NCBI GenBank assembly: GCA_919901565.1
Contig: CAKKPE010000138.1
Location: forward strand, 11,936 to 75,935
From: a bacterium
Lineage (GTDB): Bacteria; CG2-30-53-67
Direction: 5' to 3'
DNA length: 64,000 nt
Part shown: in pieces, positions 1,648 to 53,491 of the stretch
Position numbering within the stretch: position 1 is the first letter of the stretch
How the letters are laid out: each line of letters begins with the position of its first letter
Position numbers and translations under genes: made by a program
Notes under the pieces: model-generated
The model's database searches: none
What the model was told of the DNA's origin: nothing
The model's input: the letters and a program-made list of their open reading frames with translations, nothing else

Positions 1648-1865
1648 CAGAGAATATTCGGTAACACTTTAAAATTCAGGGTTCAATGCAGGGGGAAAAG
1701 GGAGGACGGGAACAGGATTTTCCTTCTCCCCTTGGGGAGAAGGTTAGGATGAGGGGGCTCTTTCCGGTCAACCCCTCACTATTTCCCTCTGCCTATCATG
1801 GGGAAGAAGGCCTTTTTACGACTTAATCTACAGTTCAACTTAAACACGAAAGAGCAAATATATCT

Positions 1866-4084: not shown

Positions 4085-5070
4085 GCCTTAAATGCCGAAT
4101 CTGCAGTAACATGGATGGGAATGTCTCATACGAGGTAAGAGAGATGATGTTCGGCACGCTGGAAGAATTCGAATATTTCAAATGCGGCCGATGCGGTTGC
4201 CTGCAGATCAAGGAAATCCCGGAAAACCTGAATGCCTATTATCCCAAAGATTATTATTCATTTGTCGGCTATTCAAAGTATTCAAAGCGGGCACGCCGTG
4301 GTTTGAAGCGTTGGTTCGACACCATGCGATTGGAATATCACATAACCGGGCGAGGTCTCGTTGGAAGGTTGGCCGCTCTGAGGGTAAAACCGCCCAAATA
4401 TATTGTCTGGGTCCGGGAGACCGGTATATCCCGTGACTCCAGGATACTGGACGTGGGTTGCGGCAGCGGAAAGCTCCTGGTGAAAATGAGTCTGGCGGGT
4501 TTCCGCCAATGCACGGGTATTGATCAATTCATAGAGAAGTCCGTGGAGTACCCGGGTGGTGTGAAGGTTATCAGACAGGACCTCTCCAGTCTTGCAGAGG
4601 ACACGGAAGAGAAATTCGATCTCGTCATGTTCCACCACTCCTACGAACATGTTCCGGATCCATATTCCACATTGCAGGCGGCAGCGAGACTTATCACGCC
4701 GGGCGGCTGGATTCTGATGGAGATTCCCCTTTCGGACTCAGAAGCCTGGGAAACGTATCGGGAAAGGTGGGTGCAGCTCGACGCTCCCCGTCATCTGTAC
4801 CTGCATACCCGGAGAAGCATGGAGCTTTTAGCGGCGCATGCAGGCCTTTGCATCAAGAAGGTAGTGTATGACTCCTCGGAGTTTCAGTTTCTTGGGAGCG
4901 AACTTTACACAAGGGGCGTCCCGCTGACAGCGGCAAAGAAAAAGAAGCTTACTAATTTTTTCAACAAGAGAGAAATCCAGGCCTTCAAGGAAAGGGCAAA
5001 AGAAGTGAACAATCTGGGCAGAGGGGATCAGGCTACATTCTTTATGGTGAGAAAAGAATGCAATCCATAA
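4081..5070 (+). CDS. Class I SAM-dependent methyltransferase with an N-terminal CxxC...CxxC zinc ribbon
   Basis: The zinc-ribbon pattern is CRICS...CGRCGC. The SAM motif is ILDVGCGSGKLL. The likely start is GTG at 4081, preceded by GGAGG; the ORF frame opens at 4048. Confidence 0.7.
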   Translation: MSLKCRICSNMDGNVSYEVREMMFGTLEEFEYFKCGRCGCLQIKEIPENLNAYYPKDYYSFVGYSKYSKRARRGLKRWFDTMRLEYHITGRGLVGRLAALRVKPPKYIVWVRETGISRDSRILDVGCGSGKLLVKMSLAGFRQCTGIDQFIEKSVEYPGGVKVIRQDLSSLAEDTEEKFDLVMFHHSYEHVPDPYSTLQAAARLITPGGWILMEIPLSDSEAWETYRERWVQLDAPRHLYLHTRRSMELLAAHAGLCIKKVVYDSSEFQFLGSELYTRGVPLTAAKKKKLTNFFNKREIQAFKERAKEVNNLGRGDQATFFMVRKECNP

Positions 5071-6104
5071 AAGAAAAAGTTTACGACCTTTCCGAGATAC
5101 CTATTGAACACGCGGCGTCGCTGAGATGGATGCTCCTGGCCATCGACCAGCAGCCTCTATTAAAACTCATAGGAGCCAAGAGGAAGTTTTCGCGCGACAG
5201 CCTTCTAAAAGTTATAGAACAGGCAGCGGCTGACAACCACATCCAGGCGGTGAAAGGGCGCCTGCGTGACGGCACGATTGAAACCTTTGTCAATCGCGTT
5301 TCGTTTCCCGCTGAGTTTCCCGCTTTTCTCGGCAAGGTTGCCGCCGGCAAGGCAGGCCTTTCTATATCCTGGCTTCGTCACATTCTCCAATGCAGAGGGA
5401 AAAGACGGCGGACATACAGGCAGAAGGCCCTTCACTACATTTGCTCGCACCCGGTATTTCTTAGCATGGCCGAGTGGTTCTGCAGGGATCCCGATGCATA
5501 TATCAGGCTGGCTGATGCAAGCTGGTTCAGCCCAATCCAGATCCATGGGGAGATCCGGAGTCTTTTAGATTTGCTTGCAGGCGGAAAGCCAAAAGATGTG
5601 CTGGAAATAGGAACCAGCAAGGGGGGAAGTCTCTATCTGTTCACCAAAGTTGCCGATCCTTGCGCCACACTGGTGACAGTCGATCTCAAAATCATTAATA
5701 AAAAATTGCTGCAATCATTTACGCGTAAACAGCAGCGTATTGAACTCATCGAAGCCAATTCGACGGTACATGGGACCATTGCCAGGATCCGTGAAATCTT
5801 CCCTGAAGGCGTGGATCTCCTGTTTCTTGACGGTGACCACTCATACGAGGGCGTCAAGAAAGATTTTGAGATTTACTCAACACTTGTACGGCCTGGCGGC
5901 TGGATTGTCTTTCATGATATTGTAGAAGACAACGACAGCCGCTATGGAGTCTGTACAGGGGGGTGTTCCGGCGGTGTTCCGGCCTTCTGGCAGGAGATCA
6001 AAAAACATTTCCGGCACGTGGAGTTTGTGGACCACCCTGAGCAGGACGGCCTCGGCATCGGGGTGTTGTTTGTCCCGGAAACAGGTATTGGCATCAACAA
6101 GTGA
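5058..6104 (+). CDS. SAM-dependent methyltransferase (Methyltransf_24/CmcI-like fold)
   Basis: Motifs VLEIGTSKGGSLYLF and LFLDGDHSYEGVKKDFEIY are typical of class I O-methyltransferases in polysaccharide clusters. Confidence 0.6.
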   Translation: MQSIKEKVYDLSEIPIEHAASLRWMLLAIDQQPLLKLIGAKRKFSRDSLLKVIEQAAADNHIQAVKGRLRDGTIETFVNRVSFPAEFPAFLGKVAAGKAGLSISWLRHILQCRGKRRRTYRQKALHYICSHPVFLSMAEWFCRDPDAYIRLADASWFSPIQIHGEIRSLLDLLAGGKPKDVLEIGTSKGGSLYLFTKVADPCATLVTVDLKIINKKLLQSFTRKQQRIELIEANSTVHGTIARIREIFPEGVDLLFLDGDHSYEGVKKDFEIYSTLVRPGGWIVFHDIVEDNDSRYGVCTGGCSGGVPAFWQEIKKHFRHVEFVDHPEQDGLGIGVLFVPETGIGINK

Positions 6105-7092: not shown

Positions 7093-8292
7093 TTGATGTC
7101 AATATTCAATAAGCAAAAAACGTATCTTGTAATCAATCTGTTGCTGGAGATCTCGCTTTATATTTTTCCCGCCACGCTTCTTTTTAGATGGTCTCATGCG
7201 AATGCCATTTGCGTTTGGATTTTTGTGCTTTATTTAACAAGTCTCTCGACCGGGAGAAGTCTTCCTCAATTTGTTTCACCCCTGAGTCTGCCGGTCTTTC
7301 TTTTTTTATTGGCCGTTTTTATTCCTTCCATAATTACAATAGGCCTGGCAGATACCTGGAGAGAAGGGAAACATGTCTTATATAGCATTGGTATTTTCTT
7401 TATATACGTGGACCAGATCAGCCGTCAACCCGTTATTTTAAAAAGGTCTCTTCTTTCGTTGATGATGTTTTCGACTTTCCTGAGTTTGGATTCTTTCTTC
7501 CAGTGGTTCACCGGCAAGGATATCATAGGCATGGAACTGTTTGGAGGACGCTGTACGGCCGTCTTTGTCAACCCGAATTACCTCTGTTTCTTTATCTCAG
7601 GAACCATACCGGTTCTTTTCTTCCATCTGCAAGAAACCACAAATGTATGGTTCAAGATCTTAGATCTGCTATTGCTGATCTTTGCCTATATGACGATTAT
7701 GCTCGCCGGAGCAAAAACCGGTTTTTCCGTTATGGTTTTATTTTTTATTTTTTATCTTGTTCAGGAAAAGAAGAAAGAAGCATGGGCACTGACCGCCTTA
7801 GGATTGGGGACGATGGTGCTTTTTTTTTATGACCCGATAGGTATTAAGAATCGGTTTTTGGAATTTTATCTGCATGGGGATGACAGGTGGAGCCTTTGGA
7901 TGCAAACCTACACTGTTTTTATAAAACCGCATCAATTATTAGGGATGGGGTTGGACACGTTTAAGGCTATCTATCCTGCTGTAAAAATAAGTGGAATATC
8001 CTACTCAGCTCCTCACAATGTTTATCTGGAAATCTGGCAGACATCCGGCATTATTGCACTTTGTTTTTTTGTCTATATATCGTTTAAAACCATAGCCTTG
8101 AGTATGATGCAAATCCGTAAACAAAGAATTTACGTGTATCTGTTCATCTCCATCGTGATGTTATTTATTACTTCGGCAGTGAGCATTCCTGTTTTTTCTA
8201 AATATTTCTCATTCTATTTCTGGCTTTACCTCGGACTTTTTGCAGGTGCCATGCAGATCCATCCGGCAACGGAGAACAGCATGGGGGGCTAA
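7093..8292 (+). CDS. O-antigen ligase/polymerase-like (Wzy_C family) integral membrane protein
   Basis: The protein has about 10-12 hydrophobic helices and a large loop in the second half. It lies between glycosyltransferase genes. Confidence 0.65.
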   Translation: MMSIFNKQKTYLVINLLLEISLYIFPATLLFRWSHANAICVWIFVLYLTSLSTGRSLPQFVSPLSLPVFLFLLAVFIPSIITIGLADTWREGKHVLYSIGIFFIYVDQISRQPVILKRSLLSLMMFSTFLSLDSFFQWFTGKDIIGMELFGGRCTAVFVNPNYLCFFISGTIPVLFFHLQETTNVWFKILDLLLLIFAYMTIMLAGAKTGFSVMVLFFIFYLVQEKKKEAWALTALGLGTMVLFFYDPIGIKNRFLEFYLHGDDRWSLWMQTYTVFIKPHQLLGMGLDTFKAIYPAVKISGISYSAPHNVYLEIWQTSGIIALCFFVYISFKTIALSMMQIRKQRIYVYLFISIVMLFITSAVSIPVFSKYFSFYFWLYLGLFAGAMQIHPATENSMGG

Positions 8293-9525: not shown

Positions 9526-9635
9526 TAGCAGACTTTTTCAACAGCTCCTCTGACCCCAATTTCACTCTTTCCTTCCTTACTTTCTTTTTCTTTTCATTCT
9601 CCTATAGTGTCGTGTCAACCTTTTAGTGTCACCCC

Positions 9636-9800
9636 CTCATCCTAACCTTCTCCCCTATGGGGAGAAGGAATTTATTGATTGCCCTAAACCTTGTCCCCAA
9701 AGGAACTGAATCTCCATAATTGTGACACAGTCTCTATTGGGATAAGGGATGTTTGACTTCCTCTCCCCTTGGGGAGGATTGAGGGGGGGATACGTCATTT
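9636..9800. repeat. REP-like GC-rich palindromic repeat family, two copies
   Basis: The copies read CCTTCTCCCCtaTGGGGAGAAGG plus a CCCCCTCATCCTAAC module (9640-9680) and CTCTCCCCttGGGGAGG plus a GAGGGGG module (9760-9790). Confidence 0.7.
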
Positions 9801-10766: not shown

Positions 10767-10859
10767 AGAGTTTAAATCGTTCAAAAAGTTCAAATGGTTC
10801 AATTCGGTTAAACGGTTTAAACGGCTTAAACTATTTGAACGGCTTGAGCAGTTTTATAG

Positions 10860-12635: not shown

Positions 12636-12790
12636 GGGCTGTCCCTTCTCCCCCGATGGGGGAGAAGGTTGGGATGAGGGGTAAAGATTCGATTTTCCCC
12701 CTCACCCCTGATTGATACATTCGAGGGCGGGCCTTTGTCCTCTCCCCCCTGCGGGGGAGAGGAGACTTCTCGATGTAAGTCTTCGCCCAC
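12636..12790. repeat. REP-like palindromic repeat cluster
   Basis: It contains CCCTTCTCCCCCgaTGGGGGAGAAGG, GTTGGGATGAGGGG, CCCTCACCCCTGATTGATACATTCGAGGGCGGGCCTTTGTCC and CTCTCCCCCCtgcGGGGGAGAGG. Confidence 0.7.
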
Positions 12791-13804: not shown

Positions 13805-13807
13805 CCC

Positions 13808-13985
13808 ATCACCTCTCTCCTCTCCCCGCGGGGGAGAGGAAGTAAGAAGGGATGCCATCTCTCCCCTTGCGGGAGAGGAAGCAAAGAGGGATACAACCTC
13901 TCCCCTTGCGGGAGGGGAAATAAAGAGAGATACTACCACCATATCCCCTTTCCCCTTGTGTGGGGGTTAGGGTGAGGGGGAGAAA
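13808..13985. repeat. Three tandem CTCTCCCC-N-GGGGAGAG hairpins plus GGGTGAGGGGG module (REP-like)
   Basis: The hairpins ctctccccgcgggggagagg, ctctccccttgcgggagagg and ctctccccttgcgggagggg are spaced about 36 bp apart within the kdsA-kdsD intergenic region. Confidence 0.7.
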
Positions 13986-16329: not shown

Positions 16330-16515
16330 GGGCGAAGACTTAGTGGTACTGTTCATAAATACGGTCGTATTCGAGTGCCGTAGGGCGTTCTCCTCTGCGT
16401 TGTGCTCCTTGCGGTGTACCAGAGGGGTACGCCTCAGTCGCGCGCCTTGATGAGACCGCCCTACGACCATCTCGGTACGTTACCATATTTATGAACAGGA
16501 CCACTTAGATCGAGA
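16330..16515. repeat. Long imperfect hairpin element (~50-bp arms) of the GTGGTnCTGTTCATAAATA family
   Basis: Arm 1 is cttagtggtactgttcataaatacggtcgtattcgagtgccgtagggcg and arm 2 is its imperfect reverse complement. Related sequences lie at 33712..33748 and 50160..50205. Confidence 0.55.
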
Positions 16516-16548
16516 AGTCTCCTCTCCCCCGCAGGGGGGAGAGTCCGG
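16508..16548. repeat. REP-like palindrome (CTCTCCCCCgcaGGGGGGAGAG)
   Basis: It lies immediately 3' of the mazG stop codon. Confidence 0.6.
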
Positions 16549-17387: not shown

Positions 17388-17640
17388 TCATTTCCCCCCT
17401 CACCCCCGATTGATAAATTCGAGGGCAGGCCTTTGTCCTATCCTCATGGAAAGAGGAAGTTCAATTGTCCCTTCTCCCCTGAGGGGAGAAGGTTAGGATG
17501 AGGGGGCTCCTTCCGGTCAACCCCTCACCCTTGCCCTCTCCCCATTCATGGGGAGAGGGTAGCTGCTATGGCCTAATTTTTTCTATGTCCCTTCTCCCCA
17601 TGGGGGAGAAGGTTAGGATGAGGGGGTATTATTATTGCTC
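17388..17640. repeat. REP-like palindromic repeat cluster (four units)
   Basis: The units read GTCCCTTCTCCCCtgaGGGGAGAAGGTTAGGATGAGGGGG, CCCCTCACCCTTGCCCTCTCCCCattcatGGGGAGAGGG and ttctatGTCCCTTCTCCCCatGGGGGAGAAGGTTAGGATGAGGGGG. Confidence 0.75.
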
Positions 17641-17782: not shown

Positions 17783-17995
17783 ATCTTTCGTAAGAAAGTT
17801 AAACGGCCGTAGAAATTAAAGATGAAGAATCAAAAATCAAAATGACAGTGTAAAAATCAAATTTATATTTTTCAATTTTTATATTTTGATTTGTCATTTT
17901 GATTTTTTATATTTGACCCTTGATTCTTAAGATGTGCAAGAAATATTTTAATTTCCAATCTCTGTGTGGTTCAACTTAAACACGAAAGAGAGGAT
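17783..17995. mobile_element. ~200-bp MITE-like element: TIR (CTTTCGT..AAGTT.AAC), AT-rich long palindrome, conserved right module GTGCAAGAA...TTTGATTTCCAAT...GGTTCAACTTAAACACGAAAGAG
   Basis: Copies lie at 29120..29325 and 53285..53488. Palindrome-only copies lie at 36838..36930 and 38935..39040, and a right-end-only copy at 1806..1860. Confidence 0.6.
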
Positions 17996-20053: not shown

Positions 20054-20310
20054 CAAAAAGGGAGTATGGTGACTACCTTCAGGATATTCTCGATTCCATT
20101 ACCGACATGGACGAATTCGTGCAGGGCATGACATTTGAGACATTCCATAAAGACAAGAAGACAGTGAATGCAGTCATACGGAGCATTGAGATTATAGGTG
20201 AGGCGGCAAAAAACATACCCGCTTCATTCCGAAATCAACATCCAGAAATTCCGTGGAAGAAGATGGCGGGAATGCGCGATAAACTCATCCATGGATACCC
20301 ATCATCCTGA
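20050..20310 (+). CDS. hepT: HepT-like toxin (DUF86, RNase)
   Basis: The DUF86 motif reads [41 protein letters not shown]. There is a 4-bp overlap with the upstream nucleotidyltransferase gene. Confidence 0.7.
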
Positions 20311-20497
20311 CCTTCTCCCCGCAGGGGAGAAGGGACATAAGGAAGAGATCAGGATTAAGATTACGACACAGCCTCGTAGGGGAGAAGTGATCTTCACCGT
20401 TCATCCCCGGATACTCAAGACGAATACTCGTGACATAAAACTCTTGACGTTGCCTGCCTTGAGGATGTCCGCTTGGGGGATAAGATGAACCCGGGTA

Positions 20498-23999: not shown

Positions 24000-24275
24000 G
24001 TTGTTTATTCCTTATGTTCCTTCTCCCTTTGGGGAGAAGGAACCCGAAAGTTTTTAATCTTCTCTATGTCCCTTCTCCCCTTTGGGGAGAGGGGACTTGC
24101 GAGGTTCTAATTTTTCTATGTCCCTTCTCCCCTTTGGGGAGAAGGTTAGGATGAGGGTGGCTCTCTTTCCTGTCAACCCCTCACCCTTGCCCTCCCCGGA
24201 GGGGAGAGGGGACTTGTGGTGATAATCTTTTCTATGTTCCTTCTCCCCTTTGGGGAGAAGGGATCTGAGGGTCCA
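24000..24275. repeat. Tandem array of 4-5 REP-like units (ttctatGTCCCTTCTCCCCtttGGGGAGA...)
   Basis: The units are spaced about 55-60 bp apart. The intervening sequences are partly similar to each other, so this is not a CRISPR array. It lies between addA and the DUF559 gene. Confidence 0.7.
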
Positions 24276-24627: not shown

Positions 24628-24689
24628 GGGTCACCTGCTTTCCCCCCCACCCTTGCCCTCCCCGAAGGGGAGAGGGGACTTGCGAGGAT

Positions 24690-29085: not shown

Positions 29086-29355
29086 AGATTTTCCCCGGAT
29101 GGATGGAAAAAGTGTAGCACAAAATCAGGGCCGTTTAAAGAATAATAGAAATTAAAAATCAAAAATCAAAAATCAATATGACAGAGTAAAAATCAAATTT
29201 TGTATTTTGATTTGTCATTTTGATTTTTTATCTTTGATGTTTGATGCTTCAGGTGCGCAATAAAACCTTTGATTTCCAGTTTTTTACGCGGTTCAGCTTA
29301 AACTCGGAATAGGCAAATATGGCAGATGGATCAGGGGCTTACATCGGAGTTATTG

Positions 29356-36200: not shown

Positions 36201-36949
36201 AATTTGAATACTCCATGATACACAGGTTATAATCTATTATTCTATATTATATTTATGGCATATAAGTGTCAAGTTGTTTCCCCTGCCAAACTGAATGAAC
36301 ATCATAAGAGACGTGATGATATCAGGTGTTATTCATGGGGTTTCTGTTAACCTGTTTCATGAAAGCGGTTGAAGAGAGGCGGTGTGGCTGAATATCCGGA
36401 TAAGTGAAACGCCGCGCCTTTCAGATTATGGTCTTATCCGAACAATGCGGCCCGGCCTGGCTTGATCATCACACAATCCGAACTAATAGAATCTTTTTAA
36501 AGGTTCTGTGGATTTAAAAAGAACCTTGCCGCTGCTTTGCCTGATCCCGTTTATGAAATCGTAAAAATTATGTAACTGTTTGAAATTCAAAGTAATTTAA
36601 GTGATTAAAATATAGGCAAACTGCTCTTTATCCTTGACTGATGCCCTTGCCCTCCGGTTCTTCACACAGATTTTCACAGGCTTTTCACATTTTTTGTGAA
36701 CATCACTCATAACCCTCTAAAATATCATGGGGATTTTTAGATACAGAGATGTGATGGCGTGTGAATCCCGTAAGTCAGGCGGCCGGACGCGGTCCAGGGT
36801 CTCTCGGCCAAAAAAAGTATTTCTTGCACGCATTAAGAATCAAAGATCAAATATAAAAAATCAAAATGACAAATCAAAATATAAAATTTGATTTTTAATC
36901 TGTCATTTTGATCTTTGATTCTTTATCTTTACTTTCTATATCAGAACGG

Positions 36950-38911: not shown

Positions 38912-38989
38912 TTCTTCTCTTCTGTGGAATCCTTATAAATCAAAAATAAAATATCAAAGATCAAAAATACAGAGCAAAAATCAAAATTT

Positions 38990-40135
38990 TTAATTGTCAT
39001 TTTGATTTTTGATATTTAATTCTTGATTTTTATCATACCGCCTGATCTCGCGATAAAGCGTATCCCGTTCCACCGGGACCTTGCCGGCTTTTTGAATCAT
39101 CCGGACCAGGGCCTCCCGGGAGAGGGCCTCGGAGGTCATGGCCCCCGCGGCATGGGTGATCTTTTCCTCCACCACGGTGCCGTCTATATCGTCCACACCG
39201 AAAAGGAGCGAGACCTGCGCTATTTTTTCTCCGAGCATGATCCAGAACGCCTTGATGTGGCTGAAATTATCCAGGAAGATGCGGCTGACTGCCATGGTCT
39301 TGAGGTCGTCGAACCCCGTGGTCATTCCGGTCTGCGGGATGCGCGTATTTTCAGGATGAAAGGCCAGCGGGATAAAGGCCTGGAATCCGCCGGTACGGTC
39401 CTGCAGGTCCCTGAGCCTTGACATGTGGTCGATCCGGGCCCTGGTGTCCTCCACATGGCCATAGAGCATGGTGGCGTTGGATTTGAGGCCTGCGGCATGC
39501 ACCGCCTCCATGATCTCGAGCCACTTCTCCCCGGTGATCTTTTCCGGGCAGATGGACTGCCGGACCCGGGGGTCAAAGATCTCTGCGCCGCCTCCGGGCA
39601 GGGACCCGAGGCCCGCCTGCTTGAGTTCCCGCAGCAGGTCCCCGATGGGGAGTCCGGTGATCCGGCTGAGATAGTCGATCTCCACCGCGGTGAAGGCCTG
39701 GATGTGGATATGCGGGAAGCGCTGCCGGAGCGTGGAAAGGAGATCCAGGTAGTAGTCCAGGGTGAGGTGGGGGTGGAGCCCTCCCACGATATGGAACTCC
39801 GTGGCCCCCTCGGCCGCTCCCTGCTCTGCCTTCTGGATGACCTCGGAGAGGTCCATGGTATAGGCGTCCGGATCCTTCTCATCCCGGCTGAAGGCGCAGA
39901 ACGTGCAGCGGTTCACACAGATATTGGTATGATTGATGTGGCGGTTGACGATAAAGTAAGCCAGGTCCCCGTTTTTGGCCCGGCACCGCATGGAGGCGAT
40001 CTTTCCCAGCCGGATCAGGTCATGCGACGCCATCAGGGCCAATGCCTCGTCAGGGCTGATCCGCAGGCCTTCTTCCACCTTGTTCTGAACAATGTCAAGC
40101 AGGTCCATGGTTTGCTCCATTCCGGGTGGAACCAT
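38990..40135 (-). CDS. Radical-SAM enzyme of the MqnC/MqnE family, paralog of the upstream gene
   Basis: The CxxxCxxC motif is CVNRCTFCAF. It is paralogous to 37835..38911. Confidence 0.7.
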   Translation of the reverse strand: MVPPGMEQTMDLLDIVQNKVEEGLRISPDEALALMASHDLIRLGKIASMRCRAKNGDLAYFIVNRHINHTNICVNRCTFCAFSRDEKDPDAYTMDLSEVIQKAEQGAAEGATEFHIVGGLHPHLTLDYYLDLLSTLRQRFPHIHIQAFTAVEIDYLSRITGLPIGDLLRELKQAGLGSLPGGGAEIFDPRVRQSICPEKITGEKWLEIMEAVHAAGLKSNATMLYGHVEDTRARIDHMSRLRDLQDRTGGFQAFIPLAFHPENTRIPQTGMTTGFDDLKTMAVSRIFLDNFSHIKAFWIMLGEKIAQVSLLFGVDDIDGTVVEEKITHAAGAMTSEALSREALVRMIQKAGKVPVERDTLYREIRRYDKNQELNIKNQNDN

Positions 40136-40310
40136 ACCACAGTTGGAGAGGATGAATCAATGAAATGAAACAAGGCATGCTTACGGGGTCAGCATAAAAT
40201 TATAAATATAAGGGAGGCGGCTTATTGTAAAATGGGTGTGGAATAATTTTCTCAAAAGTGGAAAAACTTTTCCTGCATCTATGGGGTCAGGTCTTGCGGC
40301 TTGCTTTTGG

Positions 40311-41162
40311 TCATCGCTCACCCTTTGCGATCCTGCTGATCGTCGAATAATGAAGACCCAGATGGGAGGCGATTTCGGTCTGCCGATACCCATATTGCTC
40401 CACCGCTTTTATGATCAATAGCTGTCTCATCTGTCGGCTCATACGAGTCTCTTCCCGAAAGAGCTTCTCCAACGATGGACGGTGCGCATAACGCTGACTC
40501 CGGGGGATCTCAGGAATATCCTTGCATTTTTTAAGGTAGTCCGACAGCTTCTCGACAAAGCTTTCCTCTCCCAGGAGTGTCTGACCCCGGACCTCGTTCC
40601 ACATTGTCTTCTGTCCAACACCCAGGGATACGAACTGCCGGTACCCCTTTCCCGCTTCGCCTCTTTTCCCGTCAAACTGGCTGAGCACCCAGTCTGTTGT
40701 CAGGCAGGGATGGGGTTTTACCCGTCCTGCTGTGGCAAGGTAACTGGAGAATGCATAGTCCTCGGGCTTCGCAACCATTTTTGCACGAACCGGATTGAGC
40801 ACAACATATCGGCACACTTCAAGAAGGTGGCTGTCCTTCTGGATCAGGATGGCCTTGTACCGGCCCTGAAATATATGGCCTGTTTTTCCATGCCATTTAT
40901 TAAAGCGTTGCGTATAGAGGCCGTTCAGTTGGCGCATGCCGATGGAGAGATTTCCGTCCGGGGTTTCGATGAGGAGATGATAGTGGTTGGTCATGAGGCA
41001 GTAGGCGTGACAAAGCCAATGGTAACGTTTATTCACATGCTGAAGGGCATGGAGAAAGTTGTTGCGGTCCTGATCATCCTTGAATACCGGCTTTTTATCG
41101 TTGCCCCGTGAGGTCACGTGATAGACTGCGCCGGGATATTCTATGCGGAGGGGACGGGCCAT
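40311..41162 (-). CDS. IS200/IS605-like Y1 (HuH) transposase domain fused to a C-terminal HTH; RAYT-like
   Basis: The HuH motif is HYHLLIETP, with QGRYKA downstream. The C-terminal HTH reads YRQTEIASHLGLHYSTISRIAKG. The start is ATG at 41162 (MARPLRIEYPG); the longer ORF to 41450 looks like a spurious extension. Confidence 0.65.
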   Translation of the reverse strand: MARPLRIEYPGAVYHVTSRGNDKKPVFKDDQDRNNFLHALQHVNKRYHWLCHAYCLMTNHYHLLIETPDGNLSIGMRQLNGLYTQRFNKWHGKTGHIFQGRYKAILIQKDSHLLEVCRYVVLNPVRAKMVAKPEDYAFSSYLATAGRVKPHPCLTTDWVLSQFDGKRGEAGKGYRQFVSLGVGQKTMWNEVRGQTLLGEESFVEKLSDYLKKCKDIPEIPRSQRYAHRPSLEKLFREETRMSRQMRQLLIIKAVEQYGYRQTEIASHLGLHYSTISRIAKGER

Positions 41163-41324
41163 AAAAAGACAATAACAAGCGGGAAGGGAAAAGTCAAGCA
41201 GCAAGACCTGACCCTGGGTTTTCGAAGTGAAAAGGGCATTGACGCGGCACAAGAGCCGTTGTATGGTGATCATGAAACCGTTCAACGGTTTAAACAGTTT
41301 AAACGATTTAAATGGTTTTTCCCT

Positions 41325-53221: not shown

Positions 53222-53491
53222 GGGGTCTCCTTCTCTTTATTGAACCAGAGACGGCGGTTTCCGTCAATTTGAGAGATTATAAAATTTACGGTACTGTCGT
53301 AAGGAAGTTGAATGGCCATGGAAATCAAGAATAAAAAATCAAACATCAAAATGACAAAGTAAAAATCAAATTTTATATTTTGATTTGTGATTTTGATTTT
53401 TTATATTTGATTTTTGATTCTTAAGGCGTGCAAGAAGTCCTTTGATCTCCAATTTTTGCGTGGTTCAACTTAAACAGGAAAAAGGGAAATG

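What the first reader, a model, noticed from the sequence alone, without database searches (positions are those of the whole stretch)
40311..41162. RAYT-like Y1 transposase with a C-terminal HTH in a REP-rich genome
- The protein has HuH (HYHLLIETP) and the QGRYKA Tyr motif of IS200/RAYT-type single-strand transposases.
- It also carries a C-terminal DnaA-C/Trp-repressor-like HTH (YRQTEIASHLGLHYSTISRIAKG).
- It is not flanked by IS608-like hairpin ends here.
- The upstream divergent region carries GTTTAAAC tandem repeats.
- It is a candidate for the enzyme that mobilises the REP-like family.
Basis: partly seen in the sequence, partly recalled or inferred. Interest (0 to 1): 0.5.

Follow-up and report, generated by a model that had tools for sequence, protein, structure and literature searches.

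The report
TIR-flanked tyrosine transposase gene (TIRtron)
This is a 931-bp unit made of a RAYT-like single-strand-DNA transposase gene with a DNA-binding tail, bracketed by 25-bp inverted repeats; the kind was described in 2013 but never tested experimentally, so it is a new example, not a new thing.

Summary

The catalytic Tyr is Y119 (RYVVLNP), not the Tyr of QGRYKA. The gene does have ends: 25-nt terminal inverted repeats (40284-40308 and 41190-41214, 22/25 complementary) starting GGGTCAGGTCTTGC.

The same repeat core flanks most relatives examined (55 motif-defined units across about 80 loci, 46-80% aa identity). Its variable inner part co-varies between the left and right ends.

This matches the published TIRYT/"TIRtron" class (Di Nocera 2013), which is TnpA_Y1 subclass 2.1 (Quentin 2018) and RAYT Group 1.

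- One metagenomic contig carries three 98.4-99.6% identical ~945-bp copies.
- A syntenic relative lacks the gene.
- The REP-like hairpins of this window are unrelated to the repeats, lie more than 15 kb away and are absent from other TIRYT loci. The REP-mobiliser idea is not supported.
- The GTTTAAAC repeats lie outside the unit.

One unplanned observation: short "stutter" arrays (flank + GGGTCA) abut about 21% of repeat tips in relatives.

The parts
40284..40308 (.). Right (gene-distal) terminal inverted repeat. It reads GGGTCAGGTCTTGCGGCTTGCTTTT from the outside on the + strand. With the preceding G (40283) the tip is GGGGTCAG, which fits GGGGWSAS.
   Evidence: I1: 25 nt, 88% complementary, 881 nt apart; two matches, 0 expected; the same core flanks relatives.
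40311..41162 (-). TIRYT gene, 283 aa plus stop. Residues about 10-165 form the Y1/HUH RAYT-like core, 166-240 a conserved middle region with a flexible stretch at 190-220, and 244-279 the HTH.
   Evidence: AF2 model with pLDDT 82; 4ER8 is the best structural match; single copy in the window.
40977..40985 (-). Codons of the HUH motif, H60-Y61-H62.
   Evidence: aligned to the H59-M-H61 positions of 4ER8, residue numbers counted by hand from the alignment; H60 is invariant and H62 invariant or nearly so in the alignments.
40806..40808 (-). Codon of Y119, the inferred catalytic tyrosine (RYVVLNPVRA).
   Evidence: aligns to Y115 of E. coli TnpA_REP; Y115F is the catalytic mutant; invariant in A2.
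40326..40433 (-). Codons of the C-terminal helix-turn-helix (residues 244-279).
   Evidence: HTH_23, 7.1e-06, above the cut-off; three helices at 243-255, 261-268, 272-279; pLDDT about 85; phage repressor-type HTH families.
41169..41197 (-). Promoter-like site TTGACT-17-TATTGT with TG before the -10. The -35 lies inside the left repeat, and the -10 ends 6 nt before the ATG, with no Shine-Dalgarno sequence.
   Evidence: The same geometry (TTGnnn, 16-18 nt, TAnnnT, 4-9 nt, start codon) is present in 33 of 53 related units. Consensus match only; no expression data.
41190..41214 (.). Left (promoter-side) terminal inverted repeat. It reads GGGTCAGGTCTTGCTGCTTGACTTT from the outside on the - strand.
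40185..40192 (+). Solo copy of the repeat tip (GGGGTCAG), 98 nt outside the right repeat and in the same orientation. It sits where similarity to the TIRYT-less relative L092 appears to stop, judged by eye from a poorly aligned intergenic region.
   Evidence: (D9). A single case; an 8-mer in one orientation within 100 nt is expected about 0.0015 times.

Best explanation
The locus is a 'TIRtron': a compact unit of about 931 bp (40284-41214). It consists of one gene for a TIR-associated tyrosine transposase (TIRYT = TnpA_Y1 subclass 2.1 = RAYT Group 1) between two 25-bp terminal inverted repeats.

Shown:
- The protein has a RAYT/TnpA_REP-type HUH fold with intact H60/H62 and Y119, plus a C-terminal HTH.
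- The repeats begin with the family-wide core (G)GGGTCAGGTCTTG. Their variable inner halves match each other within an element far better than between elements.
- In at least one other genome the whole unit exists as near-identical copies in different flanks.
- A syntenic relative lacks it.

Inferred mechanism:
- The unit is a low-copy, autonomous insertion-sequence-like element.
- The HTH tail tethers the (probably dimeric) enzyme to the two tandem half-sites GGTCA|GGTCT of each repeat.
- The HUH/Tyr centre nicks and rejoins DNA at or near the repeat tips, as its relatives do on single-stranded DNA.
- Because the -35 of the gene's own promoter lies inside the left repeat and the mRNA is probably leaderless, binding of the protein to that repeat should shut off its own synthesis and keep copy number low.

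In this genome the copy looks like an intact, single, possibly still active insertion between the mqnE-like and cpsB-like genes. It acts on its own ends, not on the REP-like hairpins.
For: - Catalytic residues.
- Repeats in the window.
- Repeats in relatives: an unbiased inverted-repeat search found (G)GGGTCAGGTCTT-type repeats in most of 68 loci at 41-77% aa identity. Motif-based pairing found 54-55 units with a modal length of 925-927 bp.
- Left/right co-variation at repeat positions 12-26: 74% identity within an element against 44% between elements.
- Mobility: three copies 98.4-99.6% identical over 942-946 bp in different flanks in L009. L092 has mqnC-mqnE, a 242-nt gap and cpsB with no TIRYT. 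There are 77-80% aa identity relatives in Nitrospirota contigs. Homologues occur on 28 plasmid records, including a repeat-flanked copy on a Legionella adelaidensis plasmid.
- Promoter inside the left repeat.
- Literature: TIRYT/TIRtron and GGGGWSAS (PMC3733652); subclass 2.1 with HTH_23/HTH_28/Bac_DnaA_C tails and no REPs (PMC6006769); the equivalence with RAYT Group 1 (bioRxiv 10.1101/2020.03.09.984088).
Against: - No biochemical or genetic experiment on any member of this subclass was found.
- Only one copy is present in the 64-kb window, and the rest of the genome could not be examined.
- The intergenic DNA of the 'empty-site' relatives is too diverged to define an insertion point or target duplication.
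- One relative (P0257) sits at the same locus in all 10 places shown (24 contigs read) from different samples. RAYT Group 1 has only about 6% duplicated members (PMC5581495). Many copies therefore behave like stable residents.
- Y1 enzymes characterised so far use hairpins in single-stranded DNA, not terminal inverted repeats, so the chemistry at the repeats is extrapolated.
- HTH binding to the repeat and autorepression are pure inference.
Confidence: 0.65

Rival explanations
1. Domesticated RAYT that mobilises the genome's GC-rich REP-like hairpins. The enzyme would cut and paste the CCTTCTCCCC-loop-GGGGAGAAGG elements in trans.
For: - The protein passes the NCBIfam RAYT model and resembles TnpA_REP structurally.
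- The window is rich in such hairpins.
- Some hairpin arms (GGGGAGAG) fit the loose GGGGWSAS motif.
- Only one copy of the gene is present in the window.
Against: - Cognate REPs normally flank their RAYT. Here the flanks are unrelated repeats that occur nowhere else in the window.
- The nearest hairpin is more than 15 kb away, and all 16 lie between 1.7 and 24.7 kb.
- Zero strict-pattern hairpins were found in about 400 kb of other TIRYT loci.
- GGGGWSAS is so loose that about 16 matches per 64 kb are expected by chance.
- Published surveys found no REPs with this subclass.
Confidence: 0.07
2. An immobile, host-retained gene. The HUH/HTH protein would serve a cellular role (for example processing of single-stranded DNA at forks, or regulation), and the inverted repeats would be its operator sites rather than transposon ends.
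For: - The full length is strongly conserved, including the middle region (mean column identity 72% in 102 sequences).
- It is single copy here.
- P0257 sits at the same locus in all 10 places shown (24 contigs read).
- Group 1 RAYTs have low duplication rates.
- The promoter is embedded in the left repeat.
Against: - An operator role does not explain a matching repeat at the 3' end of the gene in most relatives.
- It does not explain three near-identical ~945-bp copies in different flanks, presence on plasmids, absence from a syntenic relative, or 77-80% identity across phyla.
Confidence: 0.2
3. A decaying relic of an insertion sequence that is no longer active in this genome.
For: The two repeats differ at 3 of 25 positions. 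The left tip reads AGGGTCAG rather than GGGGTCAG. There is one copy in 64 kb.
Against: - The ORF is intact with all conserved catalytic residues and is 80% identical to its closest full-length relatives.
- 22/25 is the commonest left/right match in the family.
- The promoter-like site is intact.
Confidence: 0.08

Closest known systems
TIRYT / TIRtron (Di Nocera, De Gregorio & Rocco 2013, BMC Genomics 14:522); TnpA_Y1 subclass 2.1, subgroup 2.1.2 (Quentin et al. 2018, BMC Genomics 19:475); RAYT Group 1 (Bertels et al. 2017)
   Same: - RAYT-like Y1/HUH core.
- A longer protein with a conserved C-terminal HTH (HTH_23 type).
- A gene bracketed by terminal inverted repeats carrying GGGGWSAS (here GGGGTCAG).
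- No REPs next to the gene.
- Low copy number, occasional duplicates and plasmid copies.
   Different: Nothing essential. This copy comes from an uncultured bacterium whose closest CpsB relatives are labelled Deltaproteobacteria. Its C-terminal domain gives no Bac_DnaA_C signal. Placement in subgroup 2.1.2 rests on domain architecture, not on a tree with the published sequences.
E. coli TnpA_REP (RAYT, PDB 4ER8) and REPtrons
   Different: - TnpA_REP is 165 aa with no HTH.
- Its flanks are REP hairpins with a GTAG tag, present in hundreds of copies genome-wide.
- Here the flanks are non-palindromic 25-nt repeats found only at the gene, and each arm alone does not fold.
IS200/IS605 family (IS608, ISDra2 TnpA)
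   Different: IS200/IS605 elements have subterminal hairpins and no inverted repeats, a TnpA of about 130-155 aa without an HTH, and often a tnpB gene. None of these applies here.

Membership tests
TIRYT / TIRtron (= TnpA_Y1 subclass 2.1 = RAYT Group 1) | Y1/HUH catalytic core of the RAYT type (HUH motif plus catalytic Tyr in the YxxxNP helix) | tested here: met
TIRYT / TIRtron (= TnpA_Y1 subclass 2.1 = RAYT Group 1) | Additional conserved C-terminal domain with an HTH (Bac_DnaA_C, HTH_23 or HTH_28) | tested here: met
   HTH_23 at 26.1 bits against a cut-off of 24.6, residues 244-279; HTH_23 in 7 of 11 and HTH_28 in 4 of 11 diverse relatives.
TIRYT / TIRtron (= TnpA_Y1 subclass 2.1 = RAYT Group 1) | Gene flanked by terminal inverted repeats instead of REP hairpins | tested here: met
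   25-nt arms at 40284-40308 and 41190-41214, 22/25 complementary; no significant local hairpins.
TIRYT / TIRtron (= TnpA_Y1 subclass 2.1 = RAYT Group 1) | Repeat carries the motif GGGGWSAS | tested here: met
   The right tip is GGGGTCAG (40283-40290). The left tip is AGGGTCAG (7 of 8). The family consensus is GGGGTCAGGTCTTG.
TIRYT / TIRtron (= TnpA_Y1 subclass 2.1 = RAYT Group 1) | Phylogenetic placement among the published subclass 2.1 / Group 1 sequences | not tested
Assignment rests on architecture and repeat motif.
Canonical RAYT / REPtron (RAYT Groups 2-3, E. coli TnpA_REP type) | Gene flanked by its cognate REP/REPIN hairpins, which are also dispersed in many copies in the genome | tested here: not met
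   The flanking sequence occurs only twice in 64 kb, both at the gene. The arms do not fold. The window's REP-like hairpins differ in sequence and lie more than 15 kb away.
IS200/IS605 | Subterminal imperfect hairpins at both ends, no inverted repeats, short TnpA (about 130-155 aa), often with tnpB | tested here: not met
   Fold z-scores +0.45 to -1.39; 25-nt inverted repeats present; protein of 283 aa; no neighbouring tnpB-like ORF.
DnaA domain IV-type HTH (Pfam Bac_DnaA_C) | Match to PF08299 | tested here: not met
   Absent from the hit list at E<=1 for this protein and at E<=0.01 for 11 diverse relatives. The literature reports it only for part of subgroup 2.1.2.

The most novel reading that the evidence does not exclude
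TIRtrons may be an unrecognised insertion-sequence family with its own mechanism: an HUH/Tyr enzyme guided by an HTH to double-stranded terminal repeats.

- In relatives, about 21% of repeat tips are abutted by tandem 'stutters' of [8-11 nt of flank + GGGTCA], against 0.8% at control positions.
- These would be in vivo footprints of repeated cutting and rejoining at a fixed site between the two half-sites GGTCA|GGTCT. On the other strand this is a C|T step, the dinucleotide cut by E. coli TnpA_REP.
- A second break would lie about 10 nt outside the tip, so the true termini would be subterminal to the repeats, as in IS608.

No such footprint is described in the papers found. The window copy would then be an intact member, with a solo tip at 40185 as its only scar.
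Probability: 0.3. Interest if true: 0.6.

Novelty: new member of a known kind. Interest (0 to 1): 0.3.

Why it matters
This subclass is very abundant. It is one of the largest groups of RAYT-like genes, yet no member has been studied experimentally.

It combines a single-strand-DNA HUH nuclease with an HTH and double-stranded-looking inverted repeats, so its mechanism is an open question. The conserved core GGGTCAGGTCTTG, the promoter inside the left repeat and the stutter footprints give concrete, testable predictions for cleavage sites and regulation.

For annotation of this genome the practical point is narrower. The gene is a self-contained, probably mobile unit. It should not be used as evidence that the REP-like hairpins have a resident RAYT.

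Tried and rejected
- Second copy in the window: tblastn found only a weak hit (E 0.04, 4543-4728) inside a methyltransferase-like ORF, judged spurious.
- Defence-system reading: no PADLOC hit.
- Phage origin: PHROGs matched mainly generic HTH regulator families through the C-terminal HTH, plus one weak core hit to a family of unknown function.
- Known RNA near the ends: no Rfam hit at E<=1.
- IS608-type hairpins: not significant.
- DnaA-like HTH binding the 9-bp GTTTAAACN repeats: rejected. There is no Bac_DnaA_C signal. The repeats lie outside the unit and recur upstream of pyrG without a transposase. Relatives lacking the TIRYT carry other short tandem repeats at the same spot.
- First AF2 run with 18 close sequences gave an unusable model (pLDDT 51). 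The 102-sequence run worked.
- Profile search of PDB sequences found nothing. Only the N-terminal half as a single sequence reached 4ER8, at E 0.098.
- Defining exact termini and target duplication failed. The empty-site relatives are not alignable in the intergenic region. P0257 and P0273 look-ups returned one context each. The Legionella element has a single full copy in PLSDB.
- A position-specific target motif outside the tips was not found.
- The exact 283-aa product is not on record. The source annotates a 320-aa product (P0001) from an upstream start that reads across the left repeat.

Full report
**1. What is there**

Window 40311-41162 (- strand) is an intact 283-aa ORF starting MARPLRIEYPGAVYHV.
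- It matches Pfam Y1_Tnp (residues 13-120, 4.6e-12) and HTH_23 (244-279, 26.1 bits against a cut-off of 24.6).
- It passes NCBI's REP-associated tyrosine transposase model NF047646 (94.2 bits against a cut-off of 80).
- It is the only copy in the 64-kb window. A weak tblastn hit at 4543-4728 lies inside a methyltransferase-like ORF and is spurious.
- Its G+C content (52.2%) equals that of the window.

**2. Protein anatomy**

An AlphaFold2 model built on 102 family members has a mean pLDDT of 82. Residues 10-185 are confident, 190-220 are flexible, and a three-helix C-terminal bundle spans 243-279.

The sequence alignment to 4ER8 gives these pairings:
- NHYHLL pairs with EHMHCI, the HUH motif.
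- IFQGRYKA pairs with IWQPRFWE.
- CRYVVLNPV pairs with VDYIYINPV.

The last Tyr is Y115 of TnpA_REP, whose Y115F change is the catalytic mutant (PMC8266576). The catalytic residue here is therefore Y119.

No Bac_DnaA_C signal was found in this protein or in 11 diverse relatives. The tail is a generic HTH_23/HTH_28/HTH_3-type motif. There are no PADLOC hits. PHROGs matched mainly generic HTH regulator families through the C-terminal HTH, plus one weak hit over the core to a family of unknown function.

**3. The ends**

The gene is bracketed by a 25-nt inverted repeat, 40284-40308 and 41190-41214. Read inward from each end it is GGGTCAGGTCTTGC(G/T)GCTTG(C/A)(T/C)TTT, with 22 of 25 positions complementary.
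- The pattern has exactly these two matches in the window. No shuffle out of 100 gave any match.
- The right arm starts 2 nt after the stop codon. The left arm ends 27 nt before the ATG. The unit is 931 bp.
- Neither end folds into a hairpin better than shuffled sequence (z-scores +0.45 to -1.39), and Rfam finds nothing.

So "no IS608-like hairpins" is correct, but "no ends" is not.

A sigma-70-like site, TTGACT-17-TATTGT with an extended -10 TG, lies on the gene's strand at 41197-41169. Its -35 is inside the left repeat, and its -10 ends 6 nt before the ATG with no Shine-Dalgarno sequence. This suggests a leaderless transcript.

**4. Relatives**

Both protein searches were capped at 8000 candidates and all of them scored below the E-value limit (1e-3 and 1e-10). 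The 120 best listed hits were 59-80% identical over the full length and included Nitrospirota.

Seven genome loci and 80 metagenome loci were fetched.
- An inverted-repeat search that used no motif recovered flanking repeats beginning (G)GGGTCAGGTCTT in most of the 68 loci that had enough flank on both sides. The relatives in the full set of 70 loci range from 41 to 77% aa identity.
- Motif-based pairing gave 54-55 units with a modal length of 925-927 bp. The distance from tip to start codon is 45 or 52 nt. The left/right match is usually 21-24 of 25.
- The first 12 or so positions are nearly invariant across the family. Positions 12-26 vary between elements but match within an element: 74% against 44% identity. 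Both arms are therefore kept alike.
- The promoter geometry seen in the window recurs in 33 of 53 units.
- A copy on a Legionella adelaidensis plasmid from a cultured isolate (46% aa identity) has the same repeats.

**5. Is it mobile?**

*For mobility:*
- Contig L009 carries three copies that are 98.4-99.6% identical over 942-946 bp in different flanks, plus a fragment.
- L002 and L074 each carry two different units.
- Homologues occur on 28 plasmid records.
- A relative whose CpsB is 76% identical has the same mqnC-mqnE / cpsB-gcvH neighbourhood, with a 242-nt intergenic region and no TIRYT (L092).
- Cross-phylum identity of 77-80% is high for vertically inherited genes.

*Against, or limiting:*
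- Only one copy is present in this window.
- The intergenic DNA of the empty-site relatives cannot be aligned well enough to define an insertion point or a target duplication.
- One relative (P0257) sits at the same locus in all 10 places shown, out of 24 contigs read from different samples.

**6. Comparison with what is known**

The literature search shows this architecture has been described.
- Di Nocera et al. 2013 named RAYT-like genes flanked by terminal inverted repeats TIRYTs, and the units TIRtrons. They noted the shared motif GGGGWSAS (PMC3733652). The window's right tip is GGGGTCAG.
- Quentin et al. 2018 placed 20 of the 26 TIRYTs in TnpA_Y1 subclass 2.1. Its subgroup 2.1.2 carries C-terminal Bac_DnaA_C, HTH_23 or HTH_28 domains and has no REPs nearby (PMC6006769).
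- A later preprint equates this subclass with RAYT Group 1 of Bertels et al. 2017. Group 1 is the largest RAYT group. [quoted passage not shown]
- No experimental work on any member was found.

All testable defining features are met (see the membership table). Placement on the published trees was not tested.

**7. The REP question**

The window holds a GC-rich hairpin family, CCTTCTCCCC-loop-GGGGAGAAGG, often extended to a 23-bp stem with TTAGGATGAGGGG. Sixteen copies match a relaxed hairpin pattern, all between 1.7 and 24.7 kb.
- These hairpins do not resemble the 25-nt repeats beyond a G run.
- None lies within 15 kb of the gene.
- A narrower form of the hairpin pattern, which catches only 4 of the window's 16 copies, has no match in about 400 kb of the other loci fetched, nearly all of which carry TIRYT relatives.

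The proposal that this enzyme mobilises them is therefore unsupported. It cannot be excluded without the whole genome.

**8. The GTTTAAAC repeats**

The 9-bp tandem repeat at 41284-41318 is real. It lies outside the unit, directly upstream of the cpsB-like start codon (41325). A similar array lies upstream of pyrG at 10779-10845. Relatives without the TIRYT carry other short tandem repeats at the same position (TGACAAC x3 in L092). These repeats are a separate feature.

**9. Unplanned observation: stutters**

In relatives, the DNA just outside the repeat tips often consists of 2-5 tandem units made of a few flank bases plus the first bases of the tip. An example is caggagaatgGGGTCA|caggagaatg|GGGTCAGACC.
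- With the test "7 flank nt + GGG recurs within 70 nt, at most 1 mismatch", 43 of 206 tips are positive. Controls gave 19 of 2286 random positions and 86 of 10419 other GGG positions.
- The copied tip part is most often exactly GGGTCA (15 of 44 cases; 5-8 nt in 24). The copied flank is 8-11 nt in 25 of 44 cases.
- The Legionella plasmid shows the same thing, so it is not a metagenome-assembly artefact.
- The junction falls between the half-sites GGTCA|GGTCT. On the other strand this is a C|T step, the dinucleotide at which E. coli TnpA_REP cuts.
- The L009 copies share 8-12 nt beyond the tip on both sides. This hints that the true termini lie about 10 nt outside the repeats.

The window copy has no adjacent stutter. 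It does have a solo GGGGTCAG at 40185-40192, 98 nt outside the right repeat and in the same orientation. It sits about where similarity to L092 appears to stop; that breakpoint was read by eye from a poorly aligned intergenic region. I regard these stutters as possible footprints of nicking and rejoining at the tips. The mechanism is unresolved, and no fixed target motif was found.

**10. Verdict**

The interpretation as a REP mobiliser or domesticated RAYT is not supported.

The locus is a new member of a known but experimentally untouched class, the TIRtron. It is most likely a low-copy, self-regulating, IS-like element. Confidence in the class assignment is about 0.9. Confidence in the full mechanistic statement is about 0.65.

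Noticed in passing
Related loci, e.g. L054:480-550, L055 (right end), L052 (right end), L016:3876-3935, L017:2890-2948, L088, L095:2860-2900: Tandem 'stutter' arrays of [8-11 nt flank + GGGTCA] sit immediately outside the repeat tips. They occur at 43 of 206 tips against 0.8% at control positions, and also on a cultured Legionella adelaidensis plasmid. They are not mentioned in the papers found.
   Followed up: partly
window 40185-40192: A solo GGGGTCAG tip motif lies 98 nt outside the right repeat in the same orientation, about where similarity to the TIRYT-less relative L092 appears to end (judged by eye). The empty sites of L091 and L092 contain CATGACCCGC, and L094 contains TGGGGTCAAGCAT.
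   Followed up: partly
window 41284-41318 and 10779-10845: 9-bp tandem repeats (GTTTAAACN) lie directly upstream of the start codons of the cpsB-like gene and of pyrG. Relatives carry different short tandem repeats at the cpsB position (TGACAAC x3 in L092).
   Followed up: partly
window 1717-1810, 9631-9668, 12645-12780, 13805-13937, 16503-16543, 17457-17627, 20293-20346, 24013-24261, 24643-24689: A GC-rich REP-like hairpin family (CCTTCTCCCC-loop-GGGGAGAAGG, extendable to a 23-bp stem with TTAGGATGAGGGG) includes BIME-like clusters (39-nt x3 at 13819-13937; 52-nt x2.5 at 24013-24145). It is confined to the first 25 kb of the window. No cognate RAYT is present in the window.
   Followed up: partly
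window 17810-17963, 29145-29284, 36814-36939, 38934-39036, 53318-53457: An AT-rich palindromic element of about 126-140 nt (AAATCAAAATGACA...TGTCATTTTGATTT) occurs in five copies in both orientations, up to 91% alike. Three of them are followed by a conserved 22-mer, GTTCAACTTAAACACGAAAGAG, which is also found at 1833.
   Followed up: no
window 41163-41273 / protein P0001: The public annotation of this gene (320 aa, 'MAG: transposase [bacterium]') starts 37 codons upstream and reads across the left repeat and promoter. Family alignments support the 283-aa start M(A/S)RPLRIEYPG.
   Followed up: yes
L004:4860-4922 and 5861-5923: A more distant relative (42% aa identity) is flanked by a much longer, 63-nt inverted repeat of different sequence (CTGATTCAACCCCGGGGTCGGAGCACGCGG...). 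It still contains GGGGTCGG.
   Followed up: no
L096-L105 (protein P0257): The identical TIRYT protein sits in the same radical-SAM / spermine-synthase-like neighbourhood in all 10 places shown (24 contigs read) from different samples. It is a stably resident single copy.
   Followed up: no
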